From assembly GCA_000002445.1 (NCBI GenBank), contig CM000207.1:1-64000 (forward strand): 64,000 bases of DNA. Reading direction: 5' to 3'. The notes beneath the pieces were generated by a model that saw only the letters and a list, made by a program, of their open reading frames with translations, searched no databases and was not told the DNA's origin. Made by a program: the position numbers and the translations under genes. This DNA comes from Trypanosoma brucei. Its lineage: Eukaryota. This document shows positions 1 through 53,779 of this stretch, in pieces. Position 1 is the first letter of the stretch; every line of letters begins with the position of its first letter.

Positions 1-1600
1 ATTATAATATTCGTATATACACACTCACAACACTCTCTTATTATTATCATTATTATTATTATTATTATTATTACTGCTTATATTATAATATTCGTATACG
101 CACACTCACCATACTCTGCTATTATTATCATTATTATTATTATTATCATTATCTTTACTGCTCTTATTATATTATTAGTATATACACACACACTCACAAC
201 ACTCTCCTATTATTATCATTATTATTATTATTATCATTATCTTTACTGCTCTTATTATATTATTAGTATACGCACACTCACCATACTCTCCTATTATTAT
301 CATTATTATTATTATTATCATTATCTTTACTGCTCTTATTATATTATTAGTATATACACACACACTCACAACACTCTCCTATTATTATCATTATTATTAT
401 TATTATCATTATCTTTACTGCTCTTATTATATTATTAGTATACGCACACTCACCATACTCTCCTATTATTATTATTATTATTATTATTACTGCTATTAGT
501 ATAATATTTGTATATACACACTCACAACACACTCCTATTATTATCATCATCATTATTATTATTACTGCTCTAATTATAATATTTGTATATGCACACACTC
601 ACAACACTCTTCTATTATTATTATTATCATTACTATTATTATTACTGCTCTTATTATAATATTCGTATATACACACACTCACAACACACTCCTATTATTA
701 TCATCATCATTATTATTATTACTGCTCTTATTATAATATTCGTATATACACACACACAACACCCTCCTATCATCATCATTATTATTATTATTATTATTAT
801 TATTAGTATAATTATTACTGCTCTTATTATAATATTTGTATACACACACACTCACAACACTCTCCTATCATCATCATCATTATTATTATTATTATTATCA
901 TTATTACTATTATCACTATAATTATTATTATTACTGCTCTTATTATAATATTCGTATATACACACTCACAACACCCTCCTATCATCATCATTATTATTAT
1001 TATTATTATTATTATTAGTATAATTATTACTGCTCTTATTATAATATTTGTATACACACACACTCACAACACTCTCCTATCATCATCATCATTATTATTA
1101 TTATTATTATCATTATTACTATTATCACTATAATTATTATTAGTACTGCTCTTATTATAATATTTGTATATAAACACACTCACAACACTCTCCTATTATT
1201 ATTATTATTATTATTACTGCTATTAGTATAATATTTGTATATACACATTCTGACAACACTCTCCTATCATTATTATTATCATCATTATTATTATTATTAC
1301 TACTCTTATTATAATATTCGTATATACACACAATCACAACACTCTCCTATTATTATTATTATTATTATTATTACTGCTATTAGTATAATATTTGTATATA
1401 CACATTCTGACAACACTCTCCTATCATTATTATTATCATCATTATTATTATTATTACTACTCTTATTATAATATTCGTATATACACACAATCACAACACT
1501 CTCCTATTATCATCATTATTATTACTGCTCTTATTATAATATTCGTATATATACACACTCACAACACTTTCCTATTATTATTATTATCATTATTATTGTA
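1..1600 (-). repeat. VSG-associated 70-bp repeat array, reverse orientation, ~20 units, continues past the left window edge
   Basis: Tandem ~75-85 bp units, each with a (TAA/TTA)n tract plus the conserved core ATTATAATATTCGTATATACACACTCACAACACTCTC (reverse complement of the canonical GAGAGTGTTGTGAGTGTGTATATACGAATATTATAAT). Six-frame ORFs here are low-complexity I/Y-rich translations of the repeat. Confidence 0.9.
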
Positions 1601-1870: not shown

Positions 1871-3313
1871 TTATGCTAGAATCAAAAATGCAAGCCAAAG
1901 ATGGGCCTTGTGAATGACAATAGAATTGCTACCTGTGGTGTTTTGGGTTTCTGCTGTTCCTGTTTCTTCAACTTGAGCTATGCATTTGTCATTTTTTAAT
2001 TCGCATCCATCTTCTGTTTTGCATTTTTTTGTCATTTATCGCTTTGCATTTGTCGCTTATTTCTTTTCTCACTCCAGGACTGCTTGATGCAGTTGCTGCC
2101 GCCCTTGAGTCTATGAGCTGTTTGCCTTTCAAAAATGTTAGAACTTTTGCGGCGCCGTCGCTCCCTGCTGTTTCGAAGATCGTCTTGTCAAATGTCGTTT
2201 CTATTACTTTCAGATTGAGTGGCGCCTTCTCGATTGAATCTGTTATTTGTGCTGTGAACGGGTTTTGGTTGCTGCCGAGGTAGGTGTCTGTTATTCCCTT
2301 TTTTGACTGCGGCTCTGTTGGTGCTTTGCCACCTGGGTTTATCAGGTCCGTTAGAGCTTGCAGTGGTTTGTCGTTTGCTCTAACCGTTGCCATGATATTC
2401 GGTGTATTGGCGTATAAGTGGGTTTTTTGAGCTGAAGGATGCTGCAGAGTGCATTGCCTAGAGTATCCTTGTCGTATTCTGAGTACGGAACTGTGTCGCT
2501 GACTTTGGCGCACGCTTTTGTTACCACATTTGTGAACAGATTGACGTCAACGGTTTTGTAGGCCGTTGTTTGCTCAGTTAGTCTGGTTGCCATGGGGTTG
2601 GTCCTTTGATTTACGAAGTCGTTGCCTTGCTCTATGCATGCTCCATGTTGCGTGGCTGATGCAGTTGGTGTTGTTGTTACTGTGCCTTTACAATGTTTTG
2701 TTACTGTGAACGTTGTTGGCGGCTTTGCAAGGTCGACCAATTTGATTTTCGTGTGCTCGGTCGGTTCTATGTCCGCTGCTTTTACGCCACCGGTTTCAGA
2801 TTCAAGTGTGCAGTTCGTTGTATCTGCTGTGAAGGACGCTGTGCTTGTGCACGTTGCCATTCCTGTTACGCTGCTTAGTGATTGTCCAGACTGGGCTTCA
2901 GAGCTAGAGACGTTCGCCGTCTCCGGCTGTGTTTTGTGTAATGTCAGCATGGTGGCTTCCTGCTGCTTGATTGCTCGGAAGGCTCTTTCGTATACTTGGC
3001 TCTCCTCATTGGTTTGGCTGTCCAGCGTGTGTGGGTCTGTTTCGGTTACCGCCATTGCAAGAAAAGTTATGTGACTCGGCTTCTCTTGGCTGAAAGCGGC
3101 TTTTATTCTGTAAGCTAATGCTGCTTGTATTGCTTGCCGGCGGATCGCTATTGCAGAGGGCAGAGATTGCTCTAGTTTTCTTGCCAATTTGTGAAGGTAC
3201 TGCGCCGCGGCGCAAGCAGTTGATACTGCCTTCGTCGCCGTGTCCTCTATTTCTGCGGCTCCTACAGGCATGCTACTGACAAGTGTCATAACAAATGCGT
3301 GCCACAGGCTTTG
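1871..3313 (-). pseudogene. VSG pseudogene (a-type-like) with frameshift and lost start
   Basis: Minus ORFs 2351..3289 and 1989..2513 are in different frames. The C-terminus reads ...NTTGSNSIVIHKAHLWLAFLILA*, a GPI signal, ending at the stop at 1871-1873. Upstream of the first Met the frame stays open (QSLWHAFV-) with no signal-peptide Met. A reverse-complement 16-mer-like GTGTCACAATATATCG lies at 1760-1775. Confidence 0.75.
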
Positions 3314-23699: not shown

Positions 23700-24700
23700 G
23701 AATTATTGTGGTTGTTTTTCAAAATTATACAACTTAAGAATGGTGTAGACTCATATCGATTCCCAAACTAAGCAAAGTTGAAATTATCACAATTGCGATG
23801 GGAGTTTTGTATATCCATGTTACGAGACCGACATGGGTTATGGAATTTTTAAAAAACAGATTGCAAGTGATGATGATATTGTAATTACTGTAGATGGATC
23901 TGATGTTATTGTTACTGATGGACAGAAGTATGAAAATGCTGTGAAATATTTTATACAAAATACTGTAGATAATGAGGAAAATTTTAGTGGAGAGGATATA
24001 GTCAAAGAAAAGCGGATTTCTTCAATTCTATTTACGTCGACAGCTGAGTATTTTTAACCTCAGTTGGATTTGCTTATGAACTCACATCACAAGGAAAATA
24101 TGGAGAGATGTTATTGGTTTTTAAAGGCTCTTTACTCAGGAAAGGAAAAAATCAACCTAACTCATTTGCTAAAATGGTGGATAACTAAAAAACCTTAGTT
24201 GAGCAGTTGTGGTATAATAGCTAGTGTGGAAATTCAGAAAGTTTTAGAAAGCGTTTAATGAAATGCTTAAAATGAGCAACAGGTGGTGGTCGGATCAAAG
24301 TATTTCAAAGCCTTTGCTAATATGAAGTGCTATTCAGGAAGAAGCTGTTGGCCAGAGATTTGTTTTGAAAAGAGGGATGATTGGAGTATGATTATTAGGA
24401 GAGATTTTTTTCTAATCCATATAGTGTGGTGATTGGAGAGAATCCAGTTATTCATTTTCCAGGTCAGCCAATTGAATGGGAGGAGAAATAGAAATTGATT
24501 GTGGAAAATCTTACTTAGAATAAAGAGTTGAAAGGGAGGAAATTTAGTACGGTAGAGTTGAGAAAGATTCGAACTTATACGAGAGGTTGAAAAAAATTTC
24601 ATTTCACGTATGACAAAATTTGTATTTACGCATTTAAGGAAGGGTATTTATTTGAGACTTATAAAATGTGATTCCGAAGGTACTTTAAAGATGTTTGATC
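23700..24700 (+). repeat. VSG-upstream module type 1, copy A (degenerate)
   Basis: Shares ...taactcaag/aatggtgtag.ctcatat.ga...caaactaag...attacaattg... and the reading-frame remnants ASDDDIVITVDGSDVIVTDGQKYENAV (ORF 23833..24057) and a frameshifted W.DQSISKPLLI... with copies at 28850..29720 and 51100..51960. Confidence 0.6.
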
Positions 24701-24884: not shown

Positions 24885-26384
24885 ATGCGGTCACTAATAG
24901 CGAATCTACTAACCGCACTAGTAGCTTTGACTTCAGTGGCACATTCGGCGCGAGAAAATGCACAGGAGTACGAAGCTCTTTGTGCAGCATATCAGGCAGC
25001 GACAGGCACCATTGAACCGGCGGATTTCAATACCGCGCAGGCAGATGCAGAAGTACCGACAGCTGTGAAGGCACTGTACGCGGCAACCATACCAGACGAA
25101 CACTACAATAATAAAACCTTTGGCATCTTCACAACCGACACAGAATTTACAGCAGTCAAAGATACAGTAAAAACCGAAAAAAACATTGACAAGTCTCCAG
25201 TTTACACCAGGCCTCCGGAAAGCCCAGGTAAGCGCGCTGCACTCACTGCTTTAGAAAGGCTGTACAACTCAACGAAAGCAACAGCTGGCCAAGCAGCCGA
25301 GAAACAAAAGGAGCTACAAAGCTTAAAAGAAAAGGCCGAAAAATTCTTAAAAGCAGCGGTTTTCGGACATGAAACGGCCACCGAAGCAAAAGAAGAAAAT
25401 TTCGACACCCGGGCCAACGCATGCAACGGCGGCGGCAATGCAAAGGCTGCCAGCCAAAATCTAGCACAAGCGCTAGCATGCGTTTGCGGCACAGCAAGCA
25501 CCAACAACGGGATCTGCGTCCAAGGGGAGGACCAAGCCAACTACGGCACAGGCAGCGGCGCTAGCGCTGGCGTCAGCGCCTATAAAGCCATAGTAGCAAA
25601 ATGTCAACCCGCCACCGAACCAAAAAAAGTCACGGCAGAACTGTTGACAGCGGCAGTCAGCCAAGTAGAATCCGTGCTCGGCAACAAAGCCTTCACAGGC
25701 CACACCAACAACGGAAGGTACGTCCTAGGAAACGGCGCGGCAGCGAACTGCAATGGCGGGGACAGTTCAGCCACTTGCATTGATTACACGACAACAGTGG
25801 GAACAGGAACATTCCACAAAGTAAAATGGGTCGAAAACATGCTCCAAGCAACGAAGGAACTGAAAAAAGCATATACCATAAGAGCGGAGCAAGCCAAAAT
25901 GCAGGCCCAGCTGGAAGCAGCAGAGGCTCAAGCGTGGCAGCTACGCGACACTCTGGCCATAGCCACTATAACCGCAGCACATGCAGCAGAAACTATCAAA
26001 CCTTCCAAGCGCCAACGACAAGAAACAATCGACTCCAAAGAAGCAGAGTGCAATACCAAAGACAAAGACACAGATTGCAAACCGCCATGCGCGTGGAATG
26101 CCGAAGCAAAAGATGAGAAAAAAAGGTGCACATTGAGCGAGAAAGGCAAAGAGGCAGCAGAAAAAGTAGCAGCAAACCAAGCAGGGACAGATGGTAAAAA
26201 TGAATCAAAATGTGGCGAGGCGAAAACAGAAGACGAATGCAAAAAGGTCCCGGGCAAGACACCAGAGGGAAAGAAAGCCGTTTGTGGATGGATTGAAGGC
26301 AAATGTCAGGATTCCTCAATTCTAGCAAGCAAACAATTCGCCCTCAGCGTGGTTTCTGCTGCATTTGTGGCCTTGCTTTTTTAA
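24885..26384 (+). CDS. VSG: Variant surface glycoprotein, apparently intact (499 aa, a-type)
   Basis: Signal peptide MRSLIANLLTALVALTSVAHSA, mature start RENAQEYEALCAAYQA, Cys-rich C-terminal domain and GPI signal ...CQDSSILASKQFALSVVSAAFVALLF*. 16-mer TGATATGTTTTAACAC at 26432-26447. Confidence 0.88.
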   Translation: MRSLIANLLTALVALTSVAHSARENAQEYEALCAAYQAATGTIEPADFNTAQADAEVPTAVKALYAATIPDEHYNNKTFGIFTTDTEFTAVKDTVKTEKNIDKSPVYTRPPESPGKRAALTALERLYNSTKATAGQAAEKQKELQSLKEKAEKFLKAAVFGHETATEAKEENFDTRANACNGGGNAKAASQNLAQALACVCGTASTNNGICVQGEDQANYGTGSGASAGVSAYKAIVAKCQPATEPKKVTAELLTAAVSQVESVLGNKAFTGHTNNGRYVLGNGAAANCNGGDSSATCIDYTTTVGTGTFHKVKWVENMLQATKELKKAYTIRAEQAKMQAQLEAAEAQAWQLRDTLAIATITAAHAAETIKPSKRQRQETIDSKEAECNTKDKDTDCKPPCAWNAEAKDEKKRCTLSEKGKEAAEKVAANQAGTDGKNESKCGEAKTEDECKKVPGKTPEGKKAVCGWIEGKCQDSSILASKQFALSVVSAAFVALLF

Positions 26385-27595: not shown

Positions 27596-27784
27596 GAGAA
27601 TTTGATATATTTCAACACCTCCTGATGATAATGTGCAAATTTTAAAAACACAAAATTATAAAATTATGGTTTCAAATTGTCCATGGTTGTATCGTACTAA
27701 TTTTATAAGAATATTAAAAGATTTATAGTGTAATTTGCTTTATTTTTCTTGTTTTATGAACGTTAGTTAGGGTTATAATAGTGA

Positions 27785-27920
27785 TAGTAAGGTGAAAGAT
27801 AAGAGTAAGTTGTTAGTGTGTATATACTAATAGTATACTAAAAGCAGTAATTATAGTTATAATTATTATTATTAAGATAGGAGAGTGTTGTGAGTATATG
27901 ATAATAATATAAGTGGTGAA
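27785..27920 (+). repeat. 70-bp repeat(s), forward
   Basis: ...attattattattaagataggagagtgttgtgagtatatgataataatataag... Confidence 0.75.
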
Positions 27921-28849
27921 GACAAATTGAATGCTCCAAATAATAGCATTTCAAGCGATAGCAAGGGTTTAATAAAGTAAGTGGGAAAAGTAGTGTGAGA
28001 GTGAGTGCTTGGGAGAGAAAGAGAACAAGAGGAACATTATGAAAGATAATGGAGAATAATTTTTTTAAAAAATGAAAATGAAAGATAAGTAGCTTACAAT
28101 AAATACAAAACAATGTTCGTCTTTATACACAAGAAGATTATCGGGGAACAATATGAAAGAGACAAAATAGAGCGCAATGACCAACTATGGTTACCCCATC
28201 GGCCGCCGCGCACATACCGCAGAAATTTGTGATGTATCAGTATTAGTAGGAGAAGATTGTAGCCAACATGTCACTGAAGATCTACAGATTTAGCAACACA
28301 GATTGTGATAACAACAATAGTAACATTAGTTTATAAAGACACGATGATGGGACTTTCACGACAAAACAGGGTGGTTGGATAACTATGACAGGCAACTCGT
28401 AATATTCATAGAACATTTAAAATAATCAGGTCAACTAGCTACTTCCATTCAGAAAACTATGCATAGAGGTTAAATGTGAAGATTGTTAAACAGCAGTGGA
28501 ATTCCTCTAGCATTCACAGCACCAGATTATACTAAAACTGATACTAAAACAAAAAGTTAGAGATGTATGATTAAAGAGGTGTTTCAGACACTGATAATAC
28601 GTCATTTAACAACGAAATAATAACAATATTAATGTATTGTTATGTAAAACCAGTAGTGACTCAACATATTTTTTTCTTTTATTTGTTATGATTTTCTTAT
28701 AACATTCTCAAATTTTTTAAGTAAATTAAGTCATTAAATTTGGTGTTTTGGAAAATTTACTATTACCATTTATATTACATAAAGTGTTTCACAGTGCAAA
28801 AACATTTCCGGAAAAACAGGAAAATATAGAATAGGGTCAACATGGGAAG

Positions 28850-29720
28850 CCCAGAGTCTTTGTGATTGTCGTTCAAATAATGCAACTCAAGAATGGTGTA
28901 GGCTCATATTGAGTGACAAACTAAGTAATGTTGACATAATTACAATTGCGACAGAAGGTTTGTATAACCATATTAAAAGATCTGGATAGGTTGTACAATA
29001 TTGATAAAGGCATAATGCAAGTGATGAGGACAATGTTATTCATTTGGATGGGCCTGATGCTATTGTTAGTGATGGAAATAAATATGAGAATGCTGTGGAA
29101 TATTTGATACAAAATACTGCAGAAAATGAAGATAGGGTTGGTGAATAGGATATTTACAAAGAGCATGTGGAGAGATTGTTATTAGTTTTTTAATGTTGGT
29201 TACAGAAAAGAAGAGGATAATAAATTACTTTATTTACTAAAATCACCTCTTAGTAGAAAAAGCTTATCTTAGTGGCGGTGGTTTGATAGCAAGAGTTTGG
29301 GCATTTAAGAAATTTGAATATGCATTTGGAGAATTATTAAAGGGAAGTGGGGAGTGGTGGTCAGAGCAGAGTATTTACAAACCATTGCTAATATGGAGTG
29401 CAAGTGAGGAAGAAACTGTAGGACAGAGATTTGTTTTGAGAAGTGGAATGATTGGGTTATATGATGAAGCGAGATTTTTTTCTATTCAATATGGTCAAAA
29501 AATTGGAGAAGCTTTATTCATTCCACTTTTATCCTCCATTGATTGCATGGAAGAATGAGGCGAAGTTGATTGTGAAAAATATCTGTTGATGTAAAGAATT
29601 GGAAGGAAGGAAATTTAGTACAAGAGATTTGGGGGAACTTCAAACATACAAGATCGATAGCGAGAAATGTTATTTAGAATTTGTGGAGATTTGTTGTGAA
29701 GTGTTTAAAGCAAGGAATAT
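28850..29720 (+). repeat. VSG-upstream module type 1, copy B
   Basis: ASDEDNVIHLDGPDAIVSDGNKYENAVEYLIQNT frame and ORF 29283..29558 MIARVWAFKKFEYAFGELLKGSGEWWSEQSIYKPLLIWSASEEETVGQRFVL... Confidence 0.6.
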
Positions 29721-30290
29721 TTTTAAAGCTCAAAAACAGTAAAATTAAAATTCTGAGTCAGCTCAGGGCTTGCAGGTGCACAGGCTCTCAAGGATATTTT
29801 TTTATTAAAATACAATACCTACTTTTATCCAGACTATGTTAAAAACGGAAACGCGGGCACCGACAGAAGATTAGGCTGGCTTCACTACAGAAAACTACAA
29901 AAGCAATGACATCAGAAAAGTTCTCGGTTTTGACGACTTTCGCCTTTGGGATTCAATTGCGAAAACAGCAAGCACTGGCTAGAAAATAGAAGTCAGCTAG
30001 AACTGAACCTACGGCTAAGCACGACAGCGCAACACCAACCAATGCTTAGCGATACGAAAAACATTCGGCGGCAAAATAACAGTTCAGCGAGGTGTAGTTG
30101 TCTATAAAACAATCTTTCGCCAAAGGGCTGGGACTTACTTTAAGAAAAAAAACAAGTAAATACATACAGAGCAACTGTCAAAAACTTTAAACCGCTTTCA
30201 AAGGGCTGGAGACCTCACCCTCATCGCCGGCCAACAAACCTTAAAATACAAGCACCACCACCAGACACCCTTTCACTAACATAACAGAAA

Positions 30291-31860
30291 ATGAAAGCCA
30301 GACAAATAATTACTCACCTGGCGGTGCTGTTGCTATTAGTGACCCCGCAGGCACGGGCAGCGGCACCGGCAGATGGCGACAACTTAGCGACGCTGGCGTA
30401 CTTGTGCCCCGCCCTTCAGCTAGCGGACGGCGACATAACATTGCACCCCGAACAAAGCAATCTAGATGGCAGCCTACAAGACCTGCTAGCGCTAAACATG
30501 TCACTAGCAGACGCCGCCTGGGCAGCTCAATTCAAGGCCTCACCGCCAGGTGCAACGCCAGTAGCAGCAACCGAGCAGCAGCAGAAGCCAGACCCCGGGA
30601 CACCAGAACAAATTGCTGCGTGGAAAATCGCCAAGGCAACAGTAGATAACAGCGCAAACTTCAAAAATGTGCTCGCAAAATACGGTTACACCCCAGAAAA
30701 CGCCTCGCAGCTGATACCGTTGAAAGGACTGATCGCTAAATACGCTGAAGCGGCATTCGACATACAGACAGCCGAAAAGTCGCAACTGCCGACCGGTCAT
30801 ACGGACGATCAACTGAAAACTCTGATAAAAACAGCAGTCTACGGGCATAACGGCGGCTACGACGTAAGCAAAAAAGCAGAGCTGGGATTTCCAGACAGCG
30901 AAAACCGAGAAGCCGCCTGCACGGCCCAAAGCAACAGCAACCCCGTAAAAACGATTTCCAGCATGGTCGCCTGTTTGTGTACAGTCAAAGACAACATGGC
31001 GCCAGCCAAAGCTCCGTGCGGCCCATACGGCAGCCAAGACCTCAAATGGGGCACAACCACGCCGCCAGGAAACGCTTTGTGGAAAAAGATGCGATCCAGC
31101 TGCCCAGAGGAACCCAAAAAGCCGGTAACCGCTATGAGAATACAAAACGCGCTCACGGCAGCAAAACTAGCGTTCCAAGCAGGAGGCAGCGATCTTTATG
31201 TAGGGAAATACGACGGGACAGGATGCGACGGCAGCACCAATACTGCCTGTATAAAATACACAGGCCAGGCAACAAACTCAGTACCTATCTTCACAAAAGC
31301 CGAGTGGCTCGACAAACTTCAAACAGTACAAAGCGACTTGCAGCAGCGCCTGTTAGCGGAGCAGTCAAAAAGCCAGGTAATCAGGCAAATAAAAACACTA
31401 AAGCAGCTGGTCAAAGCAGCCACCAAACACGCAGAAAAACTTACACCGCCAACGACGCAGCACCATAGCGACCCAAAACTAGCCACCGCAAACGACAAAA
31501 ATAGCCAAGCTCAGAAAACAGCAGATTGCTCAAAACTTGAAAAAGCGGAGTGCAAGCCCGATGTGGGATGCAGATATAACGAAACAACGACTAAATGCGA
31601 AAACGATGCCCAAAATCCAGTTTCAAAAACGAACAAAGAAGCTACAGGAGGAACAACAAACTCTGAAGGTAAGAAGTGCCCCGAAAAGAAAAAAGCAAGA
31701 AGACTGCAAAGATGGCTGCAAATGGAACGGAACAGAATGCAAAGATTCCAGTTTTCTCCTAAACAAACAATTCGCCCTCAGCGTGGTTTCTGCTGCATTT
31801 GTGACCTTGCTGTTTCAAAATTTTAAAACTTACAAGGGGTTTTGTTTAGTTTTGTGAAAC
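30291..31860 (+). pseudogene. VSG pseudogene with intact N-domain, C-terminal frameshift and lost stop
   Basis: 511-aa ORF 30291..31826 with signal MKARQIITHLAVLLLLVTPQARAAAP. Its C-terminus is out of frame. The proper C-terminus ...CKDGCKWNGTECKDSSFLLNKQFALSVVSAAFVTLLF sits in ORF 31537..31857 and runs on (QNFKTY...) because TAA is replaced. Confidence 0.75.
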
Positions 31861-32009: not shown

Positions 32010-32345
32010 TCTAATTTGTTTATTCAGTTATTTTTTGTTTTTATTAAATGGATATTTACTATTGTTATAATAATGATAAAAATAGGAGAGTGTTGTGAGT
32101 GTGTGTATACGTATATTATAATAATATTAATAATAATAATAGTAATGATAATAATAATAATAATAGGAGAGTGTTGTAAGTGTGTGTATACGTATATTAT
32201 AATAATAGTAATAATAATAATAACAGTAATGATAATAATAATAATAGGAAAGTGTTGTGAGTGTGTATATACAAATATTATAATAAGAGCAGTAACAATG
32301 ATAATAATATCGGTGTGTTGTTAGTTTGCATACACTAATATTATA
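32010..32345 (+). repeat. 70-bp repeat array, forward, ~4 units
   Basis: Repeated ...ataggagagtgttgtgagtgtgtgtatacgtatattataataat... Confidence 0.85.
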
Positions 32346-33257
32346 ATAAAAGTTGTCGTGAACACTAAATACACGAAGAAAACACAATCATTTAAATTAA
32401 TAAAAAAAGTGAGACAGGAAAAGGTGAGTAAAACTGTGAGAAAGAGATAAAGTATATTATTATCGAAGGAAGTGCAACAAAACCAGTGACGAATTTGGAT
32501 AAAATACGTGTAACCTTAAATACACGCATAATGCTTGGCGCCATCACTGTATACAAGGAGATTATGGGACGTTCAATACGATATTGGTAGAGCTCAGTTT
32601 ACAGGGGAAATGGAATCGGTACGTTATCTGCAAAAGAAGCGACAGAAAACAAAAAATAGGAAAATATAGAATTAAACGACACAATATGCAACAGCACATA
32701 AGAGAGAAAAAAGTACATCAAGAACAACAAGAACAGGTGAAGCCTTGCATTTTTCTTGGAAATATATGGGCGCATCAGCTGAGATGTTTCAAACTGCTGT
32801 TTTTAATCTTATTATGGATACTAGTGTGAAACAATGACTGCAGTGAGAGGAGGCTAGTATGCTAACTGTGTGTTATTTGCCATAGCCACAAATAAGAGAG
32901 CATAAATGGAGAGGTAAGATGGTCACTTTTTTTGCTGATATTGGTAGAAATGGGTGAATAATCTACACATAATTCAAAGGAAAAGGTATAGCCCACGTCG
33001 ATCCATCTGGTGGGAAGTGTAAATAGACCTACCCGCGGTCATTGAAAGCGCCAACTTGTCTTGATCCATAAGAAGAGGGAAAACATGCGAATCATCCTTC
33101 AAAAGCTGGCTCATCCAGCAGAAATGTACCAGCGTAATGCTAATCCGCTGTCAAAACTAAGTTATATTCCTCTTAAAAAGACTTTTTTCGTCCTTAAACT
33201 AGCCTCACCACAACAGGAATCAAATATCCCCTTTACAAGATAGGCAAAGTCAATTAA

Positions 33258-45399: not shown

Positions 45400-45480
45400 A
45401 AGTAGGGCTATAATAGCAATAGTCATAATAATTATTAGATGAGAGTGTTGTGAGTGTATATGCACCAATATTATAAGGTG
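45400..45480 (+). repeat. 70-bp repeat, forward, single
   Basis: ...aattattagatgagagtgttgtgagtgtatatgcaccaatattataag... Confidence 0.75.
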
Positions 45481-46191
45481 AGTGGTTAAGCCTAATTGCA
45501 CGAGCAACATAGAAGCACTTACAACAGTTAAGATAGTGTAATATTAGTAAGTTTGCGAGTTAGAAAGAACAGGCAGGACAATTATGAATGTTATGATAAA
45601 GGAAAATGAAGGGTTGGGGCGACTCACCCGTAATGTCAAAATAAGAAGTGCACAAGTAAAAATCATTAGAAATAATATAGGAAACGCAATCATGGGGAGG
45701 CTCAACGCCTAGGGAGAATAAAAAAAAGTTGACACGTTGAACGCAGCAAAAGCAAAAGGATATTCTGTTGGGCACGGTGCAAAGGAAGACACTCAAATCA
45801 AAGATAAGAAAGAGCGGACTTTTTTTCTTTCGTGCCTTCGTGGGAGTTTCCCCCACTGGCGCGGCCATCAACCATCACCGTAGAGCCCTGAGATGCTATC
45901 GATCTGGCGACTGTGGTAGAGTCTCCCTTTTTTATTCAGCCTAACACACCCTTTATAATTTTTGTTGTAGTTCCGCAGTTGAACGGAATACAGCAGATGG
46001 GGCGAGAAGCCTCCCACTCCGGACTCTCCCAAAGATGTCAATTAGCAATCCTTTTGTTTTGATTTTTGTTATTCGTTTATTATTCTCTTCTCCCTCTTTC
46101 TGTTTCTGTTGCTTGTTGATTGCATACCCCCTCTGTCTCTGAGGGTGTCTGGACTATTCCTGCGTCCGGTGCTTTTCCTGCTAGCTCCACA

Positions 46192-48318
46192 CTAGGCAAT
46201 AAGGGGGGAAGTTGCAGAAGGGAGAGTGGGTTGTATGACTGTTACCTTAGGTGAGGACTTCACCTGCGGCCGGCTCCGTTCAACCGCAATGAGAAACTGC
46301 GCCAGCCTTTTAGAGAAACATACATCCTGCACACACTCACCTTCTACCGCAAACCTGACATGTAACTCCTTCAAACCGGGGCAGCTCATCAAGTGCAGCG
46401 ACGTTTCTTCGCAGTCGCCGCGTTGGCTGGTAACAGCGCGCTCTACCTTCATACCGTGCATCTTCTTTTGATGTAGGGTGAGGCCAGTTTTGCTAGCACA
46501 CTTCCTTCCGCATGTCGGGCACACCAACATGGATGTGTTTGTATGCGGGGAATCAGTGGCACACAATTTTGTGCTTTTGCTGCATTTAAGCTCGGCTCCC
46601 TCACCTTTGTGGAAAGCCTTACAGTGTCGGATGAGGGAGTCCCTGCAACTGAGCACTTTTTGGCACACACCACACTGCACCTCTCCTCTCCCCCGGACGT
46701 CAACGTTTCCCTCACGGGCACGCTTACGAGGGAATTGCACCACCACAACGGTACCTTCCTCCGTCACTATGCTTTTATGTTTGAATTTTTTGTGTAGTGA
46801 CAGGGAAGAGCGTGTACCGAAGCTCGCCTCACACAGGTCACATTGAAACGGCAGCTTCCGTGTATCCTGAGGAGCTGGCACTGCTGGGACGCTACCATCT
46901 CCTTGCACTGAGTCCTCGTTTTCTTGCCCCCTTTTCACGTGGCAACTACCGTTACCTATGCCATGTATTGTTCTAAGGTGGTGTAATAGTCGGCCTTGCA
47001 CTGCGAATTTGGAGGCACAGATGGTACAATGAAGCAACTGCGGTCTCATCGGGACTCGTGTGTTCGATGGTAGAGGAACGATCGCCACCACTGGAGGGGG
47101 CTCCGGGGGGATATCCACTGCAGGTGTTGCATCGCCGTATTTGATCCTCCGGAGGGCATCAGCTCGCACAAAGCCATGTTTGTTTACCATGTGCGTTACA
47201 GCACTCGAGCGGCATTGGTATGTGGCATCACATTCCGTACATTTTGTCGGTTCGGAGGTTCTCTGAAGAGTGCGTGTCGCAACAGGTGGGGCCTTTTGTA
47301 TTGTTGGTCCTATCGGTGCATGTTTCTGGTTGCACCATCGGCACTGTGGAGGCACACTCGGGTTGATCTTTCGCAACATCCATCCATAGTGTCTTGAAGA
47401 CCCAACCCGAAAGCGTGCCAGTGCCGTTTCTTCTTCCCTCGTCAGTTCTTCTTTATGTTTTGTTGGAAAGTGGTTGCCCGTGATACCAAACCTATGAGTG
47501 TTCTCATGGACTTCTTCCGACCTAAGCACTCGCTTCGCATAAGCAATGATGTTGGGGATCCATGTGTCTCGCAACTGTGGTAAATCTGCGGCCTTTTTGG
47601 CCATTTTATCACAAACCTCATTCCGTTTCACGCTACAATGGCCAAACACAAATTGCAGTCGGATACGCACTTTCCTTCTCTGAACTTGAAGCAGAAGCCT
47701 CCATAGTCGTCTCAGAATTAGCTCTGTTACGGGTACGGGGCCTATCTGCAGTGCTGTTAACATTGACAGCGAGTAAGAGAAGATGGACAACCTGCTCGGT
47801 GTGCTTCTGTATGCCAGAAACCATTTCAGCAGCCTTTGCAGTCCTATCTCTAATGCTACGCATTCCGCTCTGTAACTGCATGAGAGTTCCCCTGCTCCGG
47901 TCTTGGGTGCACAAATCAGCGTGTTGTTTCTATGGAGCATGGCAGCTGCTCCGGACTTCTCACCGAGGGACACGGATCCATCAGTCCACAATTCGTAGTG
48001 CTCTCGTCGCGATGGCTCCTTCCCCCTCCGTGCAAAATGCCGTTCAATCCACTTTTCGTAAGCCTCCCTTTTAACATCGTCAGGGTCATCAGCGCACACA
48101 GGCTTTACCTGCGTGTGAAATAGCGGTCGGCAGCTGTGGCGGAGCGTCGATGTCTCTAGTGGGTGCTCGCGTGGCTCAATGTGGAGGTGGGGGTAGGACC
48201 GCATGATGCGGGAATGTAAGACTCTGACTGGGTGTTTGCTGTGGTATACTTCCTCGGCACTGCGCCGCAAACATCCGCCTCGTGACTCATACATCAGCAT
48301 GAATTTCATACTGCCCAC
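46192..48318 (-). pseudogene. ingi copy 2 ORF segment: RNase H/C2H2 zinc-finger C-terminal region
   Basis: About 95% identical at the protein level to the 16124..18853 segment of copy 1. Confidence 0.75.
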
Positions 48319-48810
48319 AAGAGTGGCCGTCTTGAGTGGCAGGAGGTTTGCTTCCAGCAGAGAGTCCTCTTTGCGCGTCCCATGCGGTATGCCGGCTATG
48401 ATGCGACTGGCCTTGTGTTGTGCTGCTGCAAGGAGGTCGCGACTTCGTTTCGAAGCGTCTCAGTACCATACCTCACTGCCATACATGGTGTGTGCCTCTA
48501 CGAGTGCTAGATAAAAAGCTCTCAGTACTTGTCGTCTTGGCCCCCATGTAGAAGTTGAGATGGCTGCTATCTGCAGTAGTCGAAAGTCCATCTTGCGTCT
48601 CGTTTCGGCCGCATGTGTTGCCATCCCTTGCAGACACTGGAATGTTACTCCTAGAAGCTTCGGTGTCCTGTCAGCTCCTATTCTTTCGCCGTTCAGTTGT
48701 AATGTAAGGGAGTGGCGCTCTATACACCCGAAGAGTGTGCACTTTGTTTTCGCTACGTTGACATACATGAAGTACTCTTTTGACCACTGTAACACCACGT
48801 TTAGGCCGCA

Positions 48811-50001
48811 TTACAGCGTGTGGTTAATGACATCCCTCTCTGTGTGCCTCGCAAGTAGCGTCAGGTCGTCTGCAAAGAATCCGTGCTGCAGCAACGGCAC
48901 TTCTGCAAGGAACTGGCTCAACGAGTTCATGACAATAATGAACATGATTGGGCCAAGGACAGTTCCTTGTGGCACTCCTCGCTCAAATGTTCTGCTTCTA
49001 GAAAGCTTCTCCTTGAATCTCACTCTGCCAGTTCGGTTACTCAGAAATGATACGCACCACTTCACAATGTGGGGTGATACCTTCATTCTGTGCAATTCTC
49101 TCACAATTTTGTCGTGTTCTACTGTATCGAATGCCTTCTCGTAGTCGACGAATACAGCACCCGTACGAGATTGGTGCGTGGGACGGCAGAGGGAAGCGCG
49201 GACGTGCAGGAGTTGTTCCAGCGTTGAGCATCCGGGGCGAAAGCCTGATTGCTGCGGCGTCAGCTGGGACTCAACAGTGTCTCTAAGTCTCGCGGCAATT
49301 ATGCGTTCCATGAATTTGCAGAGACAGCTCGTGAGCGTCACAGGCCTGTAAGAATCGAGGTCCTCCGCCTTTTTTCCGGCCTTCAGGATGGGGATGATAA
49401 CACCGGTCTTCCATGTAGGCGGCACGACTCCCGTTCGTAGGTTCTCATTGAATAGCATCAGAACAACATTCAGCGCTGCTCTACCGAGATGTTGCAGTGC
49501 CTCGTTGTATAAGCAATCAGGTCCGGCTGCGGATCCACTCGGTAGCAGTTTGATCGATCTCCGTAGTTCAGCCATCGTGATGGGACTGAACTCACTCGCT
49601 ATTGTCTTTATGGGTGCCTGTGGGTGTGAGTCGATGTGCCTTCTTTCTCGGGACGAGTACAGTTTACTGAACCTCTCAGCTTGACGGTAGTCCGTGATGG
49701 CCACGTAATCAACAAGTACAGCCGGTGTGGTTAGTGGTCGTGGCGCATATACCTTCTTGACAATGTGCCAACTGCAGCGGTCTGACACCGCAAGTCTGGA
49801 GCATAGCGTGCTCCATCTCTTCTTTGTGGTACGGTCCAGGATCTGCTTACGCGTGACTACCAACTTTTCCCTTCGGTGGGATGTTCCGCATCCAGCGATC
49901 TCTTCATCGAGTTTCGCGAGCTCGGGTGTCCAATGTGGTGGCGTTGCTCTGCAGCCACGGGGGACGGAGGCCTTCGTCGCAATGAGGATGGCGGAGCTCA
50001 A
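48811..50001 (-). pseudogene. ingi copy 2 ORF segment: reverse transcriptase
   Basis: ...PQGTVLGPIMFIIVMNSLSQFLAEVPLLQHGFFADDLTLLARH... Confidence 0.75.
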
Positions 50002-50079
50002 TTTCTGTTCCAGGGTGTTGACGTTCTTCTCTCTACCAATTTTCCTGCAGAGCTCGTCAACCTTGAGACGGAAATTACT

Positions 50080-51058
50080 CTAGTCAGCTTTTAGCCATGC
50101 GTACATGGGCTTTCGAAGCCGCGGGCAACTCAGTGCATCTGTGTCCTCTCCAACGATAACGTCGAAAAATATGTGATGGTGATCGCTATCGGAAGAATAC
50201 AGCGATGTCCACGTGTACACTGTACAATTCCTTGACAGTGTCACATCAGGGGTGGACTCCCCATGGTGGCGCGCGTACCTGGTGCACTCACCAGTGTTGC
50301 AAACCAGAAACTGGTTGTCAATGCACCACTGTGTGAGGGTTTCACCCTTGGTATTTGTTGGGCTCGCGCGATCCCATGCCAACGCGTGTGCGTTAGCGTC
50401 TGCACCGATGAGCTGGGCACCGACAGTTGTCAGAAGCGTATCTAGGTCAGTTGCCGTGAAGATATATTTTGGTGGGATGTATGCCGACGTGACAGTCAGC
50501 GCCGTTGCACGTGTAAGGTGAATTGTTGCATGCACTTGTTCAATGCGACCAATAACGGCCATACCGGTATCGACTGGTAGGTCCTCCCTCACTAGTATTG
50601 ATACACCACCTCCTTTGCAGTTACGAGCTATTCCGTGATGTTGGTAGCCAGCAACGCTAAAGCAAGCCGCCTCTCCAGGCGTCATCCTTGTCTCGCTCAA
50701 CAGACAAAAGGCGATCCGCTCATCAACAAGGGTTTTGTGGAGTGCTAATCTCTTTCCTTGAGATAGCCCGGCGCAGTTCCACTGCATCCCGCGCAACGAC
50801 GGGCCGGGATTCTCTTCCACATCACCGGACATCAGAATCTTGGTGCGGATGATACTGCTGATGGCACGCTGGCAAATGCCCATGGACTGACAAATGAAAA
50901 ACGGTGTCCCAGCAAGACGCTGCTGATCCCTGTGCTGTATTATGCCGTAGCAGGAGCGAAGCATTGTTCCCCATGAAAGGAACGCTGCTGGCTCTTGGCT
51001 TCCCCCGATGATACGGGGCACTGGACCCTGGCACCACGTTGAGGTGGCTGGCATCGCC
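50080..51058 (-). pseudogene. ingi copy 2 ORF segment: endonuclease-like N-terminal region with 2A-like peptide
   Basis: ...MPATSTWCQGPVPRIIGG...RTKILMSGDVEENPGPSLRGMQWNCAGLSQGKRLALHKTLVDERIAF... The called ORF starts in flanking DNA (MRSFFAIFVVLFTQA). Confidence 0.7.
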
Positions 51059-51099
51059 TGAGTAAATAGTACAACAAAGATAGCAAAGAATGACCGCAA

Positions 51100-51960
51100 A
51101 AATCCCAGTGTTTGTGGTTGTAGTAAAACTTATGTAACTCAAGTATCGTGTAGATTAATATTGAGTGACAAACTAAGCCATATTAAAATTATTACAATTG
51201 AAATGGGAGGTTTGTATACTCATGCTAAGAGGCGTAGGTGGGTTATAAAATTTTTAGAAATACAAAATGCAAGTGATGAGGATATTGTAATAAGTGTAGA
51301 TGGGTCTGATGTTATAATTTCTGATGGGAATAAGAACGAGATTGTTGTGAACATTTTATACGAGAAACAACTCACAGTGGGAACAAATTTCATGAAGAAG
51401 ATATTCACAGAAAGCACATAAACAGATGTTATTAGTTTTTTAATGTTGGACACAGAAAAGAAGAGGATAAGAAGTTACCTCACTTACTTAAATCATCTCC
51501 TGGTTGAAACACCTATCTTAGTGGTGGTCGTTTGATAGGGCGAGTATGGACATTTAAGAAATTTGAATATGCTTTTAGAGAGTTACTAAAGGGAAGTGGG
51601 GAGTGGTGGTCAGAGCAGAGTATTTACAAAGCATTGTTAATATGGAGTGCAATTCAGGAAGAAGCTGTTGGACAGAGCTTTGTTTTGAAGAGGGGAAAGA
51701 ATGTATTTGATTATAAGAAGATATTTCTTACTATAACAAATAGTGTCATATAGGAGCGGAAACATTGATACATTTTGCAGAGCAGCCAATTGCATGGGAA
51801 CATAAAGCGGAACGGATTGTGGAAAAATTTACTTGGCACAGATAGTTTAAAAGGACGGTGTTTACAACTACTGAATCGAAAAATTCAAGAATATGCAGTA
51901 TCTAGAGAGAAATGTGGTTTTAGCTATCGGGAAATTCGTGGTGAAAGTTTTTCATAAGTG
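51100..51960 (+). repeat. VSG-upstream module type 1, copy C, abutting the ingi copy 2 5' end
   Basis: ORF 51161..51421 (...ASDEDIVISVDGSDVIISDGNKNE...) and ORF 51532..51753 MIGRVWTFKKFEYAFRELLKGSGEWWSEQSIYKALLIWSAIQEEAVGQSFVL. Confidence 0.6.
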
Positions 51961-52252
51961 GATCTGTTTAAAGTTATGAAGTTGTAAACATAAAAATGGA
52001 CGGTAATGTTTACTTCCAAGCCCTTGCATTCTAACAGGCGAAACCTTTACCAAGGCAAAACTAACCATGTGAAGACCGCCTTTGTGTGCCGTTCTGCTTC
52101 ATGGAGATACAACCTCTAAAGCGTAGGGGTCAAACACTTATACAAAATGAGGCAGCGGAGACAACTAGACTACAATGCAACACAACCTGCCTTAACACCT
52201 GCCCTGTTACTTATTGCTGATACACAAAAAGCTCCAAGCAAAGTAGAATCTG

Positions 52253-53779
52253 ATGATCTATATAGTGCTCCTAGCGCTCTTTGCGTTACCCAAGGCAGTA
52301 TCTCCAGCTGCCAACCAAAACGCAGCTGAGTACAGAGCTTTATGCGATTTAATAGCGCTCAAGGAGTCCATTTCGACGTTAACTGAACCAACAGCCGACA
52401 CTGCAGTTACAGACATCGTTAACGACATCGAAATGCTGAACATATCAACGGCCACAGACAGTTTCATAGCGGACAGAGATGGCGAACTTAAAGAGACAGA
52501 ATCGGGAGTCAAAAAAAGCGAAAAAGAGGCATGGCAGGAAAAGATAAAAAAGCTCGATCAAGAGACAGGAGAACCCAAAACTGTCAAATACAAAAGACTA
52601 AAAGACAAAACGACGCGTGGGCCAGCAAACCAAAACATCAACAAGTTGCTGCAACGGGCTCAGCAGCTGAAAATTGCTTACGAACAACAGATCTCAGAGG
52701 CGAAATCAAAAAAAACAGCGATTACAACATCAATTAAAAACGCTATTTACGGAAAAGGACAGGAAGACTTCCAAGAAAAAGCACTTGACACCAACGACGC
52801 AAAAAACAACTGCGGAAAAGCGGCAGGCAGCGAAAACGTCGGTCAAAGCCTAAGCAACGACCTGGTGTGCCTTTGCATACCGGACCAAGGCGCGAACGGA
52901 AACGACTTGTGCGAACACGGGCTGCAACCAACAGCGGTAGCCGTAGCAAACCGAGGCAGCCAAACCACACCACAGTACACCACCATGGTCAACGGCTGCA
53001 AACTGCAGCATCGGAAAAGACAACTGACGCCATATTTAATAATCCAACGCCTCGCAGCGTTTGACAGCCTTTTGGGCAGACAAGCGCAAACAGCGACCAC
53101 AGCAGCGGCGACAAGAACACTTGGCAAACCACACAGCGATGGAAACTGCGACAACAGCGCAACCCAGGGCATGTGCGTCAACTATAAGCAGCAAATAGAA
53201 ACAGCAACCACAGGCATCCCATGGGTAGCACAACTAACCCAAGCCGCCCATGATTTAACAGCAATGAACAAAGCAACAGAACATGCGGCAGCCATCAAGA
53301 CACAACTGGAGAGCATTCAAGCGAGTGCTTGGGCTGTCTACGCAGCGGCGGTAAACACCGAGCTCAACCAACGGCACCCAAAGCAAAACGAACAACCGAT
53401 ACAAGCAACAACAGTCAACGACAACAAGTGCAAGCCAACAAACGCAACTCCTGCCGAATGCCCAAGCGACCATTGCGTTTATGACGATAAAGCAACAGAT
53501 GGTAACAAATGCAAACCTAAACCAGGAACAGAAACCACAGCAGCAGCAGGAACAGGAGAGACACCAAAAGAGGGAGCAGCTGCAACTGGGTGTGTAGCAC
53601 ACAAAGATAAAACCACTTGTGAAAATGACAAAACAGGCGACAAGCAAAATTGTGCATGGAGAAGGGGAAAAGATAGTGAGCCTGACCGAGAAAAAGAAAT
53701 GTGCCTTGATTCCAGTTCTCTTGTCAATAAGAAGTTGGATCTGATGGCTGCTGCTTTTGTGAGCTTGGTAAAATTTTAG
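52253..53779 (+). CDS. VSG: Variant surface glycoprotein, apparently intact (508 aa, a-type)
   Basis: MIYIVLLALFALPKAVSPAANQNAAEYRALCDLIAL... A complete C-terminal domain ...CENDKTGDKQNCAWRRGKDSEPDREKEMCLDSSSLVNKKLDLMAAAFVSLVKF*. The signal peptide is short, so the start codon is uncertain. Confidence 0.8.
   Translation: MIYIVLLALFALPKAVSPAANQNAAEYRALCDLIALKESISTLTEPTADTAVTDIVNDIEMLNISTATDSFIADRDGELKETESGVKKSEKEAWQEKIKKLDQETGEPKTVKYKRLKDKTTRGPANQNINKLLQRAQQLKIAYEQQISEAKSKKTAITTSIKNAIYGKGQEDFQEKALDTNDAKNNCGKAAGSENVGQSLSNDLVCLCIPDQGANGNDLCEHGLQPTAVAVANRGSQTTPQYTTMVNGCKLQHRKRQLTPYLIIQRLAAFDSLLGRQAQTATTAAATRTLGKPHSDGNCDNSATQGMCVNYKQQIETATTGIPWVAQLTQAAHDLTAMNKATEHAAAIKTQLESIQASAWAVYAAAVNTELNQRHPKQNEQPIQATTVNDNKCKPTNATPAECPSDHCVYDDKATDGNKCKPKPGTETTAAAGTGETPKEGAAATGCVAHKDKTTCENDKTGDKQNCAWRRGKDSEPDREKEMCLDSSSLVNKKLDLMAAAFVSLVKF

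What the first reader, a model, noticed from the sequence alone, without database searches (positions are those of the whole stretch)
23700..24700. Recurring VSG-upstream module (type 1) carrying conserved short reading frames, three copies
Three regions lie in the same place, between the 70-bp repeat and an a-type VSG: 23700-24700, 28850-29720 and 51100-51960. All begin with ...aactcaag.atggtgtag.ctcatat.ga..caaactaag...attacaattg.. and contain two colinear ORF remnants. ORF remnant 1: ASD(D/E)D.VI.(V/L)DG(S/P)D(V/A)I(V/I)(T/S)DG(Q/N)K(Y/N)EN/I.V. ORF remnant 2: (I/M)(A/G)RVW(A/T)FKKFEYAF(G/R)ELLKGSGEWWSEQSIYK(P/A)LLIWSA..EE.VGQ(R/S)FVL. The three downstream VSGs are unrelated in their N-domains. 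The module is therefore conserved independently of the VSG, partly at the amino-acid level: copies B and C keep an open frame of ~75-90 aa while copy A is frameshifted. This could be a co-transposed upstream unit with a degenerating ancestral small gene, or a functional small ORF or uORF that travels with VSG cassettes.
Basis: seen in the sequence. Interest (0 to 1): 0.65.

Follow-up and report, generated by a model that had tools for sequence, protein, structure and literature searches.

The report
Decayed ESAG3 pseudogenes upstream of VSGs
The three repeated "modules" are dead copies of ESAG3, a known trypanosome gene whose pseudogenes are known to litter the silent surface-antigen (VSG) gene arrays, so the finding is real but ordinary.

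Summary
Three homologous ~1-kb segments lie between a 70-bp repeat and a VSG gene, and they carry colinear reading-frame remnants. They are not a small gene or a uORF. The majority consensus of the three copies restores one ~297-codon frame with only two stops. That consensus matches T. brucei ESAG3 (368 aa) at E = 1.9e-135, 67% identity, 97% coverage.

A frameshift-aware alignment shows full-length or near full-length ESAG3 pseudogenes:
- A: 23581-24671
- B: 28733-29742
- C: 51059-51987, cut at its 5' end by an ingi retroelement

Each copy has 3-10 in-frame stops and 4-5 frameshifts. A and B have lost the ATG. B and C share an 87-bp deletion and a W184-to-stop change.

Remnant 1 holds the DXXD metal site. 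Remnant 2 holds the glycine loop and the WWSEQ pocket. Substitutions favour third codon positions (omega 0.1-0.3 in the core). I read this as a legacy of selection before the copies died.

Published work already states that ESAG3 pseudogenes are common in VSG arrays and can sit 3' of the 70-bp repeats. Verdict: already known, low interest.

The parts
23581..24671 (+). ESAG3 pseudogene, copy A. Full length, ESAG3 aa 1-368 plus TGA. ATG is now ATA. 10 in-frame stops and 4 frameshifts. Keeps the 29 codons that B and C have lost.
   Evidence: Frameshift-aware alignment to ESAG3 P0001, 60% aa identity. tblastn HSPs in frames 2/1/2/3. nhmmer E = 2.3e-289.
28733..29742 (+). ESAG3 pseudogene, copy B. 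Full length apart from an 87-bp (29-codon) deletion at about aa 146-175. ATG is now ATT. 7 in-frame stops and 4 frameshifts. W184 is now TAG, shared with C.
   Evidence: The deletion is visible in the DNA alignment. 63% aa identity to P0001.
51059..51987 (+). ESAG3 pseudogene, copy C. Covers ESAG3 aa ~30-368, cut at the 5' end by an ingi element. 3 in-frame stops and 5 frameshifts. Shares the 87-bp deletion and the W184 stop with B.
   Evidence: The junction with the ingi 5' end at 51058 was read and mapped by BLAST to the other ingi copy.
23869..23940 (+). It contains the metal-binding DXXD motif D110/D113. Equivalents lie at about 29017-29088 (B) and 51269-51340 (C).
   Evidence: Alignment. 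Residue states. Motif positions from bioRxiv 10.64898/2026.01.27.701950.
29283..29444 (+). It starts just after the glycine loop G215-G216 and holds W242 and E244/Q245 (WWSEQ). This is the best conserved block. Equivalents lie at about 24224-24388 (A) and 51532-51693 (C).
   Evidence: omega 0.10-0.30; third-position bias p = 0.0006-0.002 for A against B or C.. Motifs.
22676..22773 (+). 70-bp-repeat unit upstream of copy A.
   Evidence: BLAST to the 70-bp arrays at 1-1597 and 32067-32349. Motif TGTTATGAGTGTG at 22738.
27775..27912 (+). 70-bp-repeat units upstream of copy B.
45410..45476 (+). 70-bp-repeat unit upstream of the ingi and copy C.
22775..23580 (+). Spacer between the 70-bp repeat and ESAG3 pseudogene A. 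Weakly homologous to the B spacer (27915-28732).
   Evidence: Local alignment, 64% identity over ~650 aligned bases, z = 18 against shuffles.
45820..51058 (-). ingi retroelement interrupting or truncating cassette C. Its 5' end abuts ESAG3 codon ~30.
   Evidence: 96% identity of both ends to the ingi copy at ~15867-21112. Long minus-strand ORFs. Sequence read.
24885..26384 (+). VSG downstream of copy A, with a B-type N-terminal domain. The other two B-type VSGs are at 30291-31826 and 52253-53779.
   Evidence: Pfam VSG_B, E = 1e-55 to 1e-72. Mutual identity 19-27%.

Best explanation
The 'type 1 upstream module' is an ESAG3 pseudogene. ESAG3 (expression-site-associated gene 3, cell-surface family Fam53) encodes a 368-aa ER-resident GT-A glycosyltransferase. 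It is intact in bloodstream VSG expression sites, and many dead copies exist in subtelomeric VSG arrays.

Shown: all three copies here are non-functional relics. They have lost start codons, carry multiple stops and frameshifts, and include an 87-bp deletion and an ingi truncation.

Inferred:
- Segmental duplication of array cassettes (70-bp repeat, spacer, ESAG3 pseudogene, VSG) carried them along, and they are decaying in place.
- The amino-acid-level conservation is a historical footprint. The lineages diverged while still coding, under purifying selection that was strongest on the catalytic core (DXXD, Gly loop, WWSEQ pocket). That is why those two stretches still read as peptides.
- Later gene conversion between copies made them mosaics. 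One such block explains why B and C are 80-93% identical in the centre.
- At most, their present role is passive, as extra homology for recombination.
For: 1. Majority consensus of the three copies: one frame of ~297 codons has 2 stops, against about 29 and 47 in the other two frames.
2. The consensus hits ESAG3 (P0001, Q26748/AAA63784) at E = 1.9e-135, 67% identity, 97% coverage. Most members of that 90% cluster are named ESAG3 from T. b. brucei and T. b. gambiense; the rest are older GenBank records named VSG or variant-specific antigen.
3. Frameshift-aware alignment covers ESAG3 aa 1-368 (A), 1-367 (B) and ~30-368 (C) at 60-63% identity, with 10/7/3 stops and 4/4/5 frameshifts. ATG is ATA in A and ATT in B.
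4. B and C share derived lesions: the 87-bp deletion and W184 to TAG.
5. Third-position bias holds over the whole gene (p = 0.002-0.018; omega 0.39-0.47) and peaks at aa 209-275 (omega 0.10-0.30).
6. Catalytic codons D110, D113, W242, Q245 and H297 are retained in all three copies. Residue roles come from the preprint.
7. The pattern of shared sites is mosaic (permutation p = 0.0006).
8. [quoted passage not shown] ESAG3 'is also in VSG arrays' (PMC3607257). BES7 and BES15 carry an 'ESAG3 psi 3' of 70-bp repeat' (PMC2567434).
Against: - Only three copies could be examined, because no T. brucei genome is reachable with these tools.
- B against C still gives omega 0.30 in the core despite their shared stop codon. 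The counts are small (12 synonymous, 17 non-synonymous), the Nei-Gojobori method ignores transition bias, and the codon-position test for that pair is not significant (p = 0.28).
- No expression data were available, so transcription or translation of fragments cannot be formally excluded.
- The copies are only 60-63% identical to expression-site ESAG3. They therefore belong to diverged array sub-lineages whose intact relatives I could not retrieve.
Confidence: 0.95

Rival explanations
1. Exapted recombination substrate. The ESAG3 pseudogenes are kept upstream of array VSGs because ~1 kb of homology to ESAG3 copies elsewhere helps VSG cassettes pair and convert. Partners would be other arrays, or expression sites such as BES7 and BES15 that also carry an ESAG3 pseudogene 3' of the 70-bp repeats.
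For: - Mosaic pairwise relationships along the copies indicate gene conversion among them (p = 0.0006; sliding identities).
- Homology stops at the ESAG3 stop codon, and the VSG with its immediate 5' flank is unrelated. A boundary of exchange would look like this.
- Hertz-Fowler et al. note that recombination breakpoints in expression sites coincide with ESAG3 loci and suggest a role in orientating sites for exchange (PMC2567434).
Against: - Conversion among repeats is expected for any dispersed repeat and does not show selection for it.
- Only 3 of about 9 cassettes in the window carry the element.
- The 70-bp repeats already supply the upstream homology.
- The copies are 30% diverged overall, which makes them poor substrates outside a few blocks.
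Confidence: 0.15
2. A functional small ORF or uORF. The 75-105-codon open stretches in B and C would encode a peptide, or regulate the downstream VSG, and travel with the cassette.
For: - Stop-free stretches of 105 (B) and 81 (C) codons occur in 33% GC DNA.
- Substitutions there are biased to third positions.
Against: - The stretches are the central part of a decayed 368-codon ESAG3 frame.
- C has no in-frame ATG, and B's first ATG lies after the conserved block.
- A has two stops and a frameshift in the same block.
- B and C carry a shared upstream stop (W184) and a frameshift between it and the block.
- VSG arrays are described as transcriptionally silent, which I take from established knowledge and did not test here.
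- The third-position bias extends over the whole ESAG3 frame, not only the open stretches.
Confidence: 0.02
3. Relic of an ancestral enzyme-plus-substrate cassette. ESAG3 O-glucosylates class B VSGs. The ESAG3 pseudogenes would sit specifically upstream of B-type VSGs because a functional ESAG3 was once linked to, and duplicated with, a B-type VSG.
For: - All three ESAG3-pseudogene-linked VSGs are Pfam VSG_B.
- BES7, which holds VSG 427-3 (VSG3, used as a class B substrate in the preprint), also has an ESAG3 pseudogene between the 70-bp repeats and the VSG.
Against: - About 6 of the 9 classifiable VSGs in the window are B-type anyway, and three of those lack the pseudogene. Three out of three therefore has a chance probability of about 0.2-0.3.
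- No genome-wide count was possible.
Confidence: 0.12

Closest known systems
ESAG3 (expression-site-associated gene 3; Fam53) of Trypanosoma brucei, and specifically the ESAG3 pseudogenes of subtelomeric VSG arrays
   Same: - Full-length colinear similarity to the 368-aa expression-site ESAG3 (E = 1.9e-135 for the consensus; 60-63% identity per copy).
- Catalytic motif codons are retained.
- The location in a VSG array and the pseudogene state match published descriptions (PMC6152948, PMC3607257, PMC4766357).
   Different: - The copies are much more diverged than expression-site ESAG3 genes, which all fall within one 90% cluster.
- The interface residues H54 and W345 are replaced in all three.
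- Copy A's central block resembles fragment representatives P0016 and P0031 in some positions. This suggests descent from ESAG3-related array sub-lineages rather than from the expression-site genes themselves.
'ESAG3 psi 3' of 70-bp repeat' in bloodstream expression sites BES7 and BES15 of Lister 427 (Hertz-Fowler et al. 2008, PMC2567434)
   Same: The order of elements is the same: 70-bp repeat, then ESAG3 pseudogene, then VSG.
   Different: Those copies are telomeric, in promoter-driven expression sites. The copies here are internal array cassettes with further cassettes on both sides. I could not compare sequences because pseudogene DNA is not in the searchable collections.
VSG co-transposed region (CTR), the DNA between the 70-bp repeats and the VSG that is copied with the gene during duplicative transposition
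   Same: The position is the same, and all three units lie inside that interval.
   Different: The CTR is a positional concept and does not imply sequence conservation or a gene. Here part of the interval is a recognisable pseudogene. Whether it is co-transposed on activation was not testable.
GT-A glycosyltransferase domain of LH3/PLOD3
   Same: ESAG3 aa 44-118 weakly matches the LH3 glycosyltransferase domain by sequence (E = 0.029). The preprint reports a GT-A fold with matching DXXD, Gly loop, acidic-polar pair and His.
   Different: This concerns the parent protein only. The window copies cannot encode a folded enzyme.

Membership tests
ESAG3 / Fam53 gene family | Significant colinear sequence similarity to ESAG3 over most of its length | tested here: met
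   The consensus hits P0001 at E = 1.9e-135, 67% identity, 97% coverage. Per-copy frameshift-aware alignments cover aa 1-368, 1-367 and ~30-368 at 60-63% identity. tblastn sum E-values for the linked HSPs reach 1e-74 to 1e-102.
ESAG3 / Fam53 gene family | GT-A catalytic signature: DXXD (D110/D113), G215-G216, W242, E244/Q245, H297 | tested here: met
   As codons, D110, D113, W242, Q245 and H297 are kept in all three copies. A has G215C and E244D, and C has G216R. Residue roles come from bioRxiv 10.64898/2026.01.27.701950.
Functional ESAG3 gene (as opposed to a pseudogene) | ATG start, signal peptide and an uninterrupted ~368-codon frame | tested here: not met
   The start codon is ATA in A and ATT in B, and C lacks about the first 29 codons. 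There are 10, 7 and 3 in-frame stops and 4, 4 and 5 frameshifts. B and C have a 29-codon deletion.
Functional ESAG3 gene (as opposed to a pseudogene) | [quoted passage not shown] | tested here: not met
   Further 70-bp/VSG cassettes and ingi elements flank the copies on both sides across the 64-kb window. No other ESAG3-like sequence occurs in the window. Transcription itself is not testable here.
Array ESAG3 pseudogenes (published category) | A disabled ESAG3-derived sequence lying within a subtelomeric VSG array | tested here: met
   The category is described in PMC6152948, PMC3607257 and PMC4766357.
VSG co-transposed region | Lies between the 70-bp repeat and the VSG start | tested here: met
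   70-bp units lie at 22676-22773, 27775-27912 and 45410-45476. VSG ORFs start at 24885, 30291 and 52253.
VSG co-transposed region | Is copied together with the VSG into an expression site during duplicative activation | not testable with these tools
   This needs sequences of activated copies.
Functional small ORF / uORF | An initiation codon and open frame conserved across copies | tested here: not met
   The C stretch has no ATG. In B the first ATG is at codon 70 of 105. A has two stops and a frameshift in the block.

The most novel reading that the evidence does not exclude
ESAG3 pseudogenes may be preferentially linked to class B VSG cassettes, the class that ESAG3 is reported to O-glucosylate. 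They would be relics of an ancestral cassette in which the glucosyltransferase gene and its VSG substrate were duplicated as one unit. Such a linkage could still bias which donors recombine into expression sites (BES7, BES15) that carry the same pseudogene 3' of the 70-bp repeats. In this window 3 of 3 linked VSGs are B-type. That is weak evidence, because B-type VSGs are the majority here anyway.
Probability: 0.12. Interest if true: 0.45.

Novelty: already known. Interest (0 to 1): 0.1.

Why it matters
It matters little as a discovery. ESAG3 pseudogenes in VSG arrays, and even 3' of the 70-bp repeats in some expression sites, are already in the literature.

The check is useful in three ways:
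- It removes a false lead, the 'new small ORF / uORF'.
- It shows that a third-codon-position bias can persist in long-dead pseudogenes and should not be read as present function.
- It gives exact boundaries and lesion lists for three copies.

A minor point of interest follows from the recent report that ESAG3 is the VSG O-glucosyltransferase. The array pseudogenes are a fossil record of how that enzyme family diversified. For example, the octadecamer interface residues H54 and W345 are replaced in all three copies. Their possible linkage to class B VSGs could be tallied genome-wide in minutes.

Tried and rejected
- Pfam on the individual ORF pieces and on the consensus found nothing significant. 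Pfam has no ESAG3 family, since P0001 itself also gives no hit.
- The search for homologous proteins with the 91-aa ORF2 of copy B alone found nothing at E <= 1. The word-seeded search needed the longer consensus, which succeeded.
- I considered that the module might be part of a retroelement (ingi, RIME or DIRE) because the ingi 5' end lies next to copy C. I rejected this. The ingi ends at 51058, and the module aligns to ESAG3 from that point.
- I looked on the far side of the ingi (45477-45819) for the missing ESAG3 5' end of copy C. No significant similarity to the A or B spacer plus N-terminus appeared, apart from ~120 bp next to the 70-bp repeat (z = 3.2). I saw no obvious target-site duplication. 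The ingi is therefore associated with a ~560-bp loss rather than a clean insertion.
- I looked for further, weaker copies upstream of the other VSGs with tblastn (E <= 10) and with nhmmer --max using the three-copy profile. There were none.
- I looked for homology downstream of the ESAG3 stop, towards the VSG. There was none (z <= 1.6).
- Marcello & Barry 2007 (VSG archive analysis) could not be read because it is not held.
- No T. brucei genome is available in the searchable DNA collections, so genome-wide copy collection was not possible.

Full report
**Setting.** The window is a Trypanosoma brucei-type subtelomeric VSG array.
- A long array of 70-bp repeats lies in reverse orientation at 1-1597. 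Short forward 70-bp units lie at about 22.7, 27.8, 32.1-32.3, 35.0, 38.5, 45.4, 54.1, 58.3 and 61.7 kb.
- VSG ORFs or fragments follow most of these units.
- Two ingi retroelements lie on the minus strand, at about 15867-21112 and 45820-51058.

- BLASTN of each region against the window finds the other two and nothing else. HSPs are 69-78% identical. A MAFFT alignment confirms colinearity over about 900 bp.
- An nhmmer profile built from the three copies scores each at E = 1e-279 to 1e-298 and finds no fourth copy.
- Each copy lies downstream of a 70-bp unit and upstream of a VSG ORF.

**What is it?**
- The decisive step was a plain majority consensus of the three aligned copies. One frame reads through about 297 codons with only two stops, while the other two frames have about 29 and 47 stops.
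- Searching that consensus gave a single overwhelming hit: P0001 (UniProt Q26748 / GenBank AAA63784, 368 aa), at E = 1.9e-135, 67% identity and 97% coverage.
- Its 90%-identity cluster has 15 members. Most are named ESAG3 from T. b. brucei and T. b. gambiense, and the rest are older GenBank records named VSG or variant-specific antigen.
- The 91-aa fragment alone had found nothing, and Pfam has no model for the family. This is why the pieces looked orphan.

**Anatomy.** I aligned ESAG3 to each copy with a dynamic-programming alignment that allows frameshifts.

| Copy | Window | ESAG3 aa | Identity | Start codon | In-frame stops | Frameshifts | Other |
|---|---|---|---|---|---|---|---|
| A | 23581-24671 | 1-368 | 60% | ATA | 10 | 4 | keeps the 29 codons lost in B and C |
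| B | 28733-29742 | 1-367 | 63% | ATT | 7 | 4 | 87-bp (29-codon) deletion at about aa 146-175 |
| C | 51059-51987 | ~30-368 | 62% | absent | 3 | 5 | same deletion; starts at the ingi 5' end (51058) |

- B and C also share W184 to TAG, so at least their central parts descend from a copy that was already dead.
That N-terminal (signal-peptide) part is too diverged for BLAST, but it is clearly alignable in A and B.

**Why the two remnants stand out.** A 2026 preprint reports that ESAG3 is a Mn2+-dependent, UDP-glucose-specific GT-A O-glucosyltransferase that modifies class B VSGs. Its DXXD metal site is D110/D113. It also has a glycine loop G215-G216, a pocket residue W242, an acidic-polar pair E244/Q245, and H297 (bioRxiv 10.64898/2026.01.27.701950).
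- The numbering agrees with P0001. Remnant 1 (ASDEDIVI.VDGSDVIV) is the DXXD region.
- Remnant 2 (…LIARVWAFKKFEYAF.ELLKGSGEWWSEQSIYK…) starts just after the glycine loop and holds the WWSEQ pocket.
- All three pseudogenes still have D110, D113, W242, Q245 and H297 as codons. A has G215C and E244D, and C has G216R. The ring-interface residues H54 and W345 are replaced in all three.
- Independently, phmmer of ESAG3 against PDB sequences weakly picks up the LH3/PLOD3 glycosyltransferase domain at aa 44-118 (E = 0.029).

Substitutions are not spread evenly over codon positions.
- In the ORF2 core, the counts at positions 1/2/3 from the DNA alignment are 11/9/24 (A vs B) and 8/7/26 (A vs C).
- On the ESAG3-anchored codon alignment, aa 209-275 gives 16/9/30 and 14/11/33 (p = 0.002 and 0.0006), with omega 0.15 and 0.10.
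- The whole gene gives omega 0.39-0.47, with p = 0.002-0.018.
- So there was protein-level constraint. It covers the whole ESAG3 frame, peaks on the catalytic core, and coexists with many disabling lesions. I infer that it records divergence among once-functional ESAG3 lineages before each died.
- In line with this, copy A's central block carries residues (KAFNEMLKMSNRWWSDQSI) also seen in separate ESAG3-related fragment representatives, P0016 and P0031, found by the exhaustive HMMER search.
- B against C gives omega 0.30 in the core. This rests on 29 substitutions, the codon-position test is not significant (p = 0.28), and the method ignores transition bias. I do not read it as current selection.

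**Against a small functional ORF.** The 'open frames' come from an ORF list that accepts TTG and GTG starts.
- From stop to stop, the B stretch is 105 codons with its first ATG at codon 70, after the conserved block.
- The C stretch is 81 codons with no ATG at all.
- A has two stops and a frameshift in the same block.

**Extent of the duplicated unit, and mosaicism.**
- The ~800-bp spacers between the 70-bp unit and the ESAG3 start are also homologous between A and B (64% identity, z = 18).
- There is no detectable homology downstream of the ESAG3 stop codon, and the VSGs are only 19-27% identical.
- The conserved unit is therefore 70-bp repeat, spacer and ESAG3 pseudogene.
- Sites where two copies agree against the third are clustered along the sequence (permutation p = 0.0006). 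A central block at about aa 176-275 groups B with C, while the 3' third shows long private branches for B and C (sliding identities). This fits gene conversion among copies.
- In cassette C the ingi is associated with the loss of about 560 bp (most of the spacer plus ESAG3 codons 1-29). I saw no target-site duplication.

**Corrections to the finding.**
- The three downstream VSGs match Pfam VSG_B (PF13206; E = 1e-55 to 1e-72), not the A-type family.
- Other cassettes in the window hold both B-type VSGs (43485, 62662, 33581) and A-type VSGs (12308 minus strand, 36868, 59973), none with an ESAG3 pseudogene.

**Comparison with what is known.** The literature already describes this arrangement.
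[quoted passage not shown] - In Lister 427, BES7 and BES15 carry an 'ESAG3 psi 3' of 70-bp repeat'. The same paper notes that recombination breakpoints coincide with ESAG3 loci (PMC2567434).

**Verdict.** The element is a known kind of object, so novelty is 'already known' and interest is low. The only mildly novel thread is whether ESAG3 pseudogenes are preferentially linked to class B VSGs, the enzyme's substrates. Three of three here is compatible with chance and would need a genome-wide tally.

Noticed in passing
ESAG3 is reported to O-glucosylate class B VSGs, so a pseudogene/B-type linkage is worth a genome-wide tally. In this window it is compatible with chance, because 6 of about 9 classifiable VSGs are B-type.
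   Followed up: partly
window 45820-51058 (minus strand) and flanks 45477-45819 / 51059-51110: The ingi element abuts ESAG3 codon ~30 of copy C. About 560 bp expected from comparison with cassette B (most of the spacer plus ESAG3 codons 1-29) are missing. No target-site duplication is apparent. This suggests a deletion or an ingi-ingi recombination rather than a simple insertion.
   Followed up: partly
window 15700-21112: A second full-length ingi lies on the minus strand at about 15867-21112. Directly next to its poly(A) end, at about 15700-15838, is the 5' end of another ingi/RIME-like element. This is a tandem arrangement of retroelements.
   Followed up: no
window 22775-23580 vs 27915-28732: The ~800-bp spacers between the 70-bp repeat and the ESAG3 pseudogene start are homologous between cassettes A and B (64% identity, z = 18), and their lengths are nearly equal (806 and 818 bp). 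The ancient duplicated unit therefore included the repeat, the spacer and ESAG3, but not the present VSG.
   Followed up: yes
ESAG3 residues H54 and W345 in copies A, B, C (for example window ~23726, ~24597): The two residues reported to stack across the octadecamer interface of expression-site ESAG3 are replaced in all three array pseudogenes (H54 to Y/N/Y; W345 to F/C/C), while the catalytic residues are kept. The ancestral array lineage may have differed in oligomerisation.
   Followed up: no
proteins P0016, P0026, P0031, P0035: The 1.84-billion-protein library holds only 46 representatives related to ESAG3 at E <= 0.001. Several are short fragments (95-187 aa) at 47-68% identity, which look like ORFs called on ESAG3-related pseudogenes. 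Copy A's central block shares diagnostic residues with P0016 and P0031.
   Followed up: partly
window 1-1597 vs 32067-32349: The long 70-bp-repeat array at the left end is in the opposite orientation to all the other 70-bp units, and the VSG ORFs at 2351-3289 and 12308-13771 are on the minus strand. The window therefore spans a change of cassette orientation somewhere between about 13.8 and 22.7 kb, around the ingi cluster.
   Followed up: no
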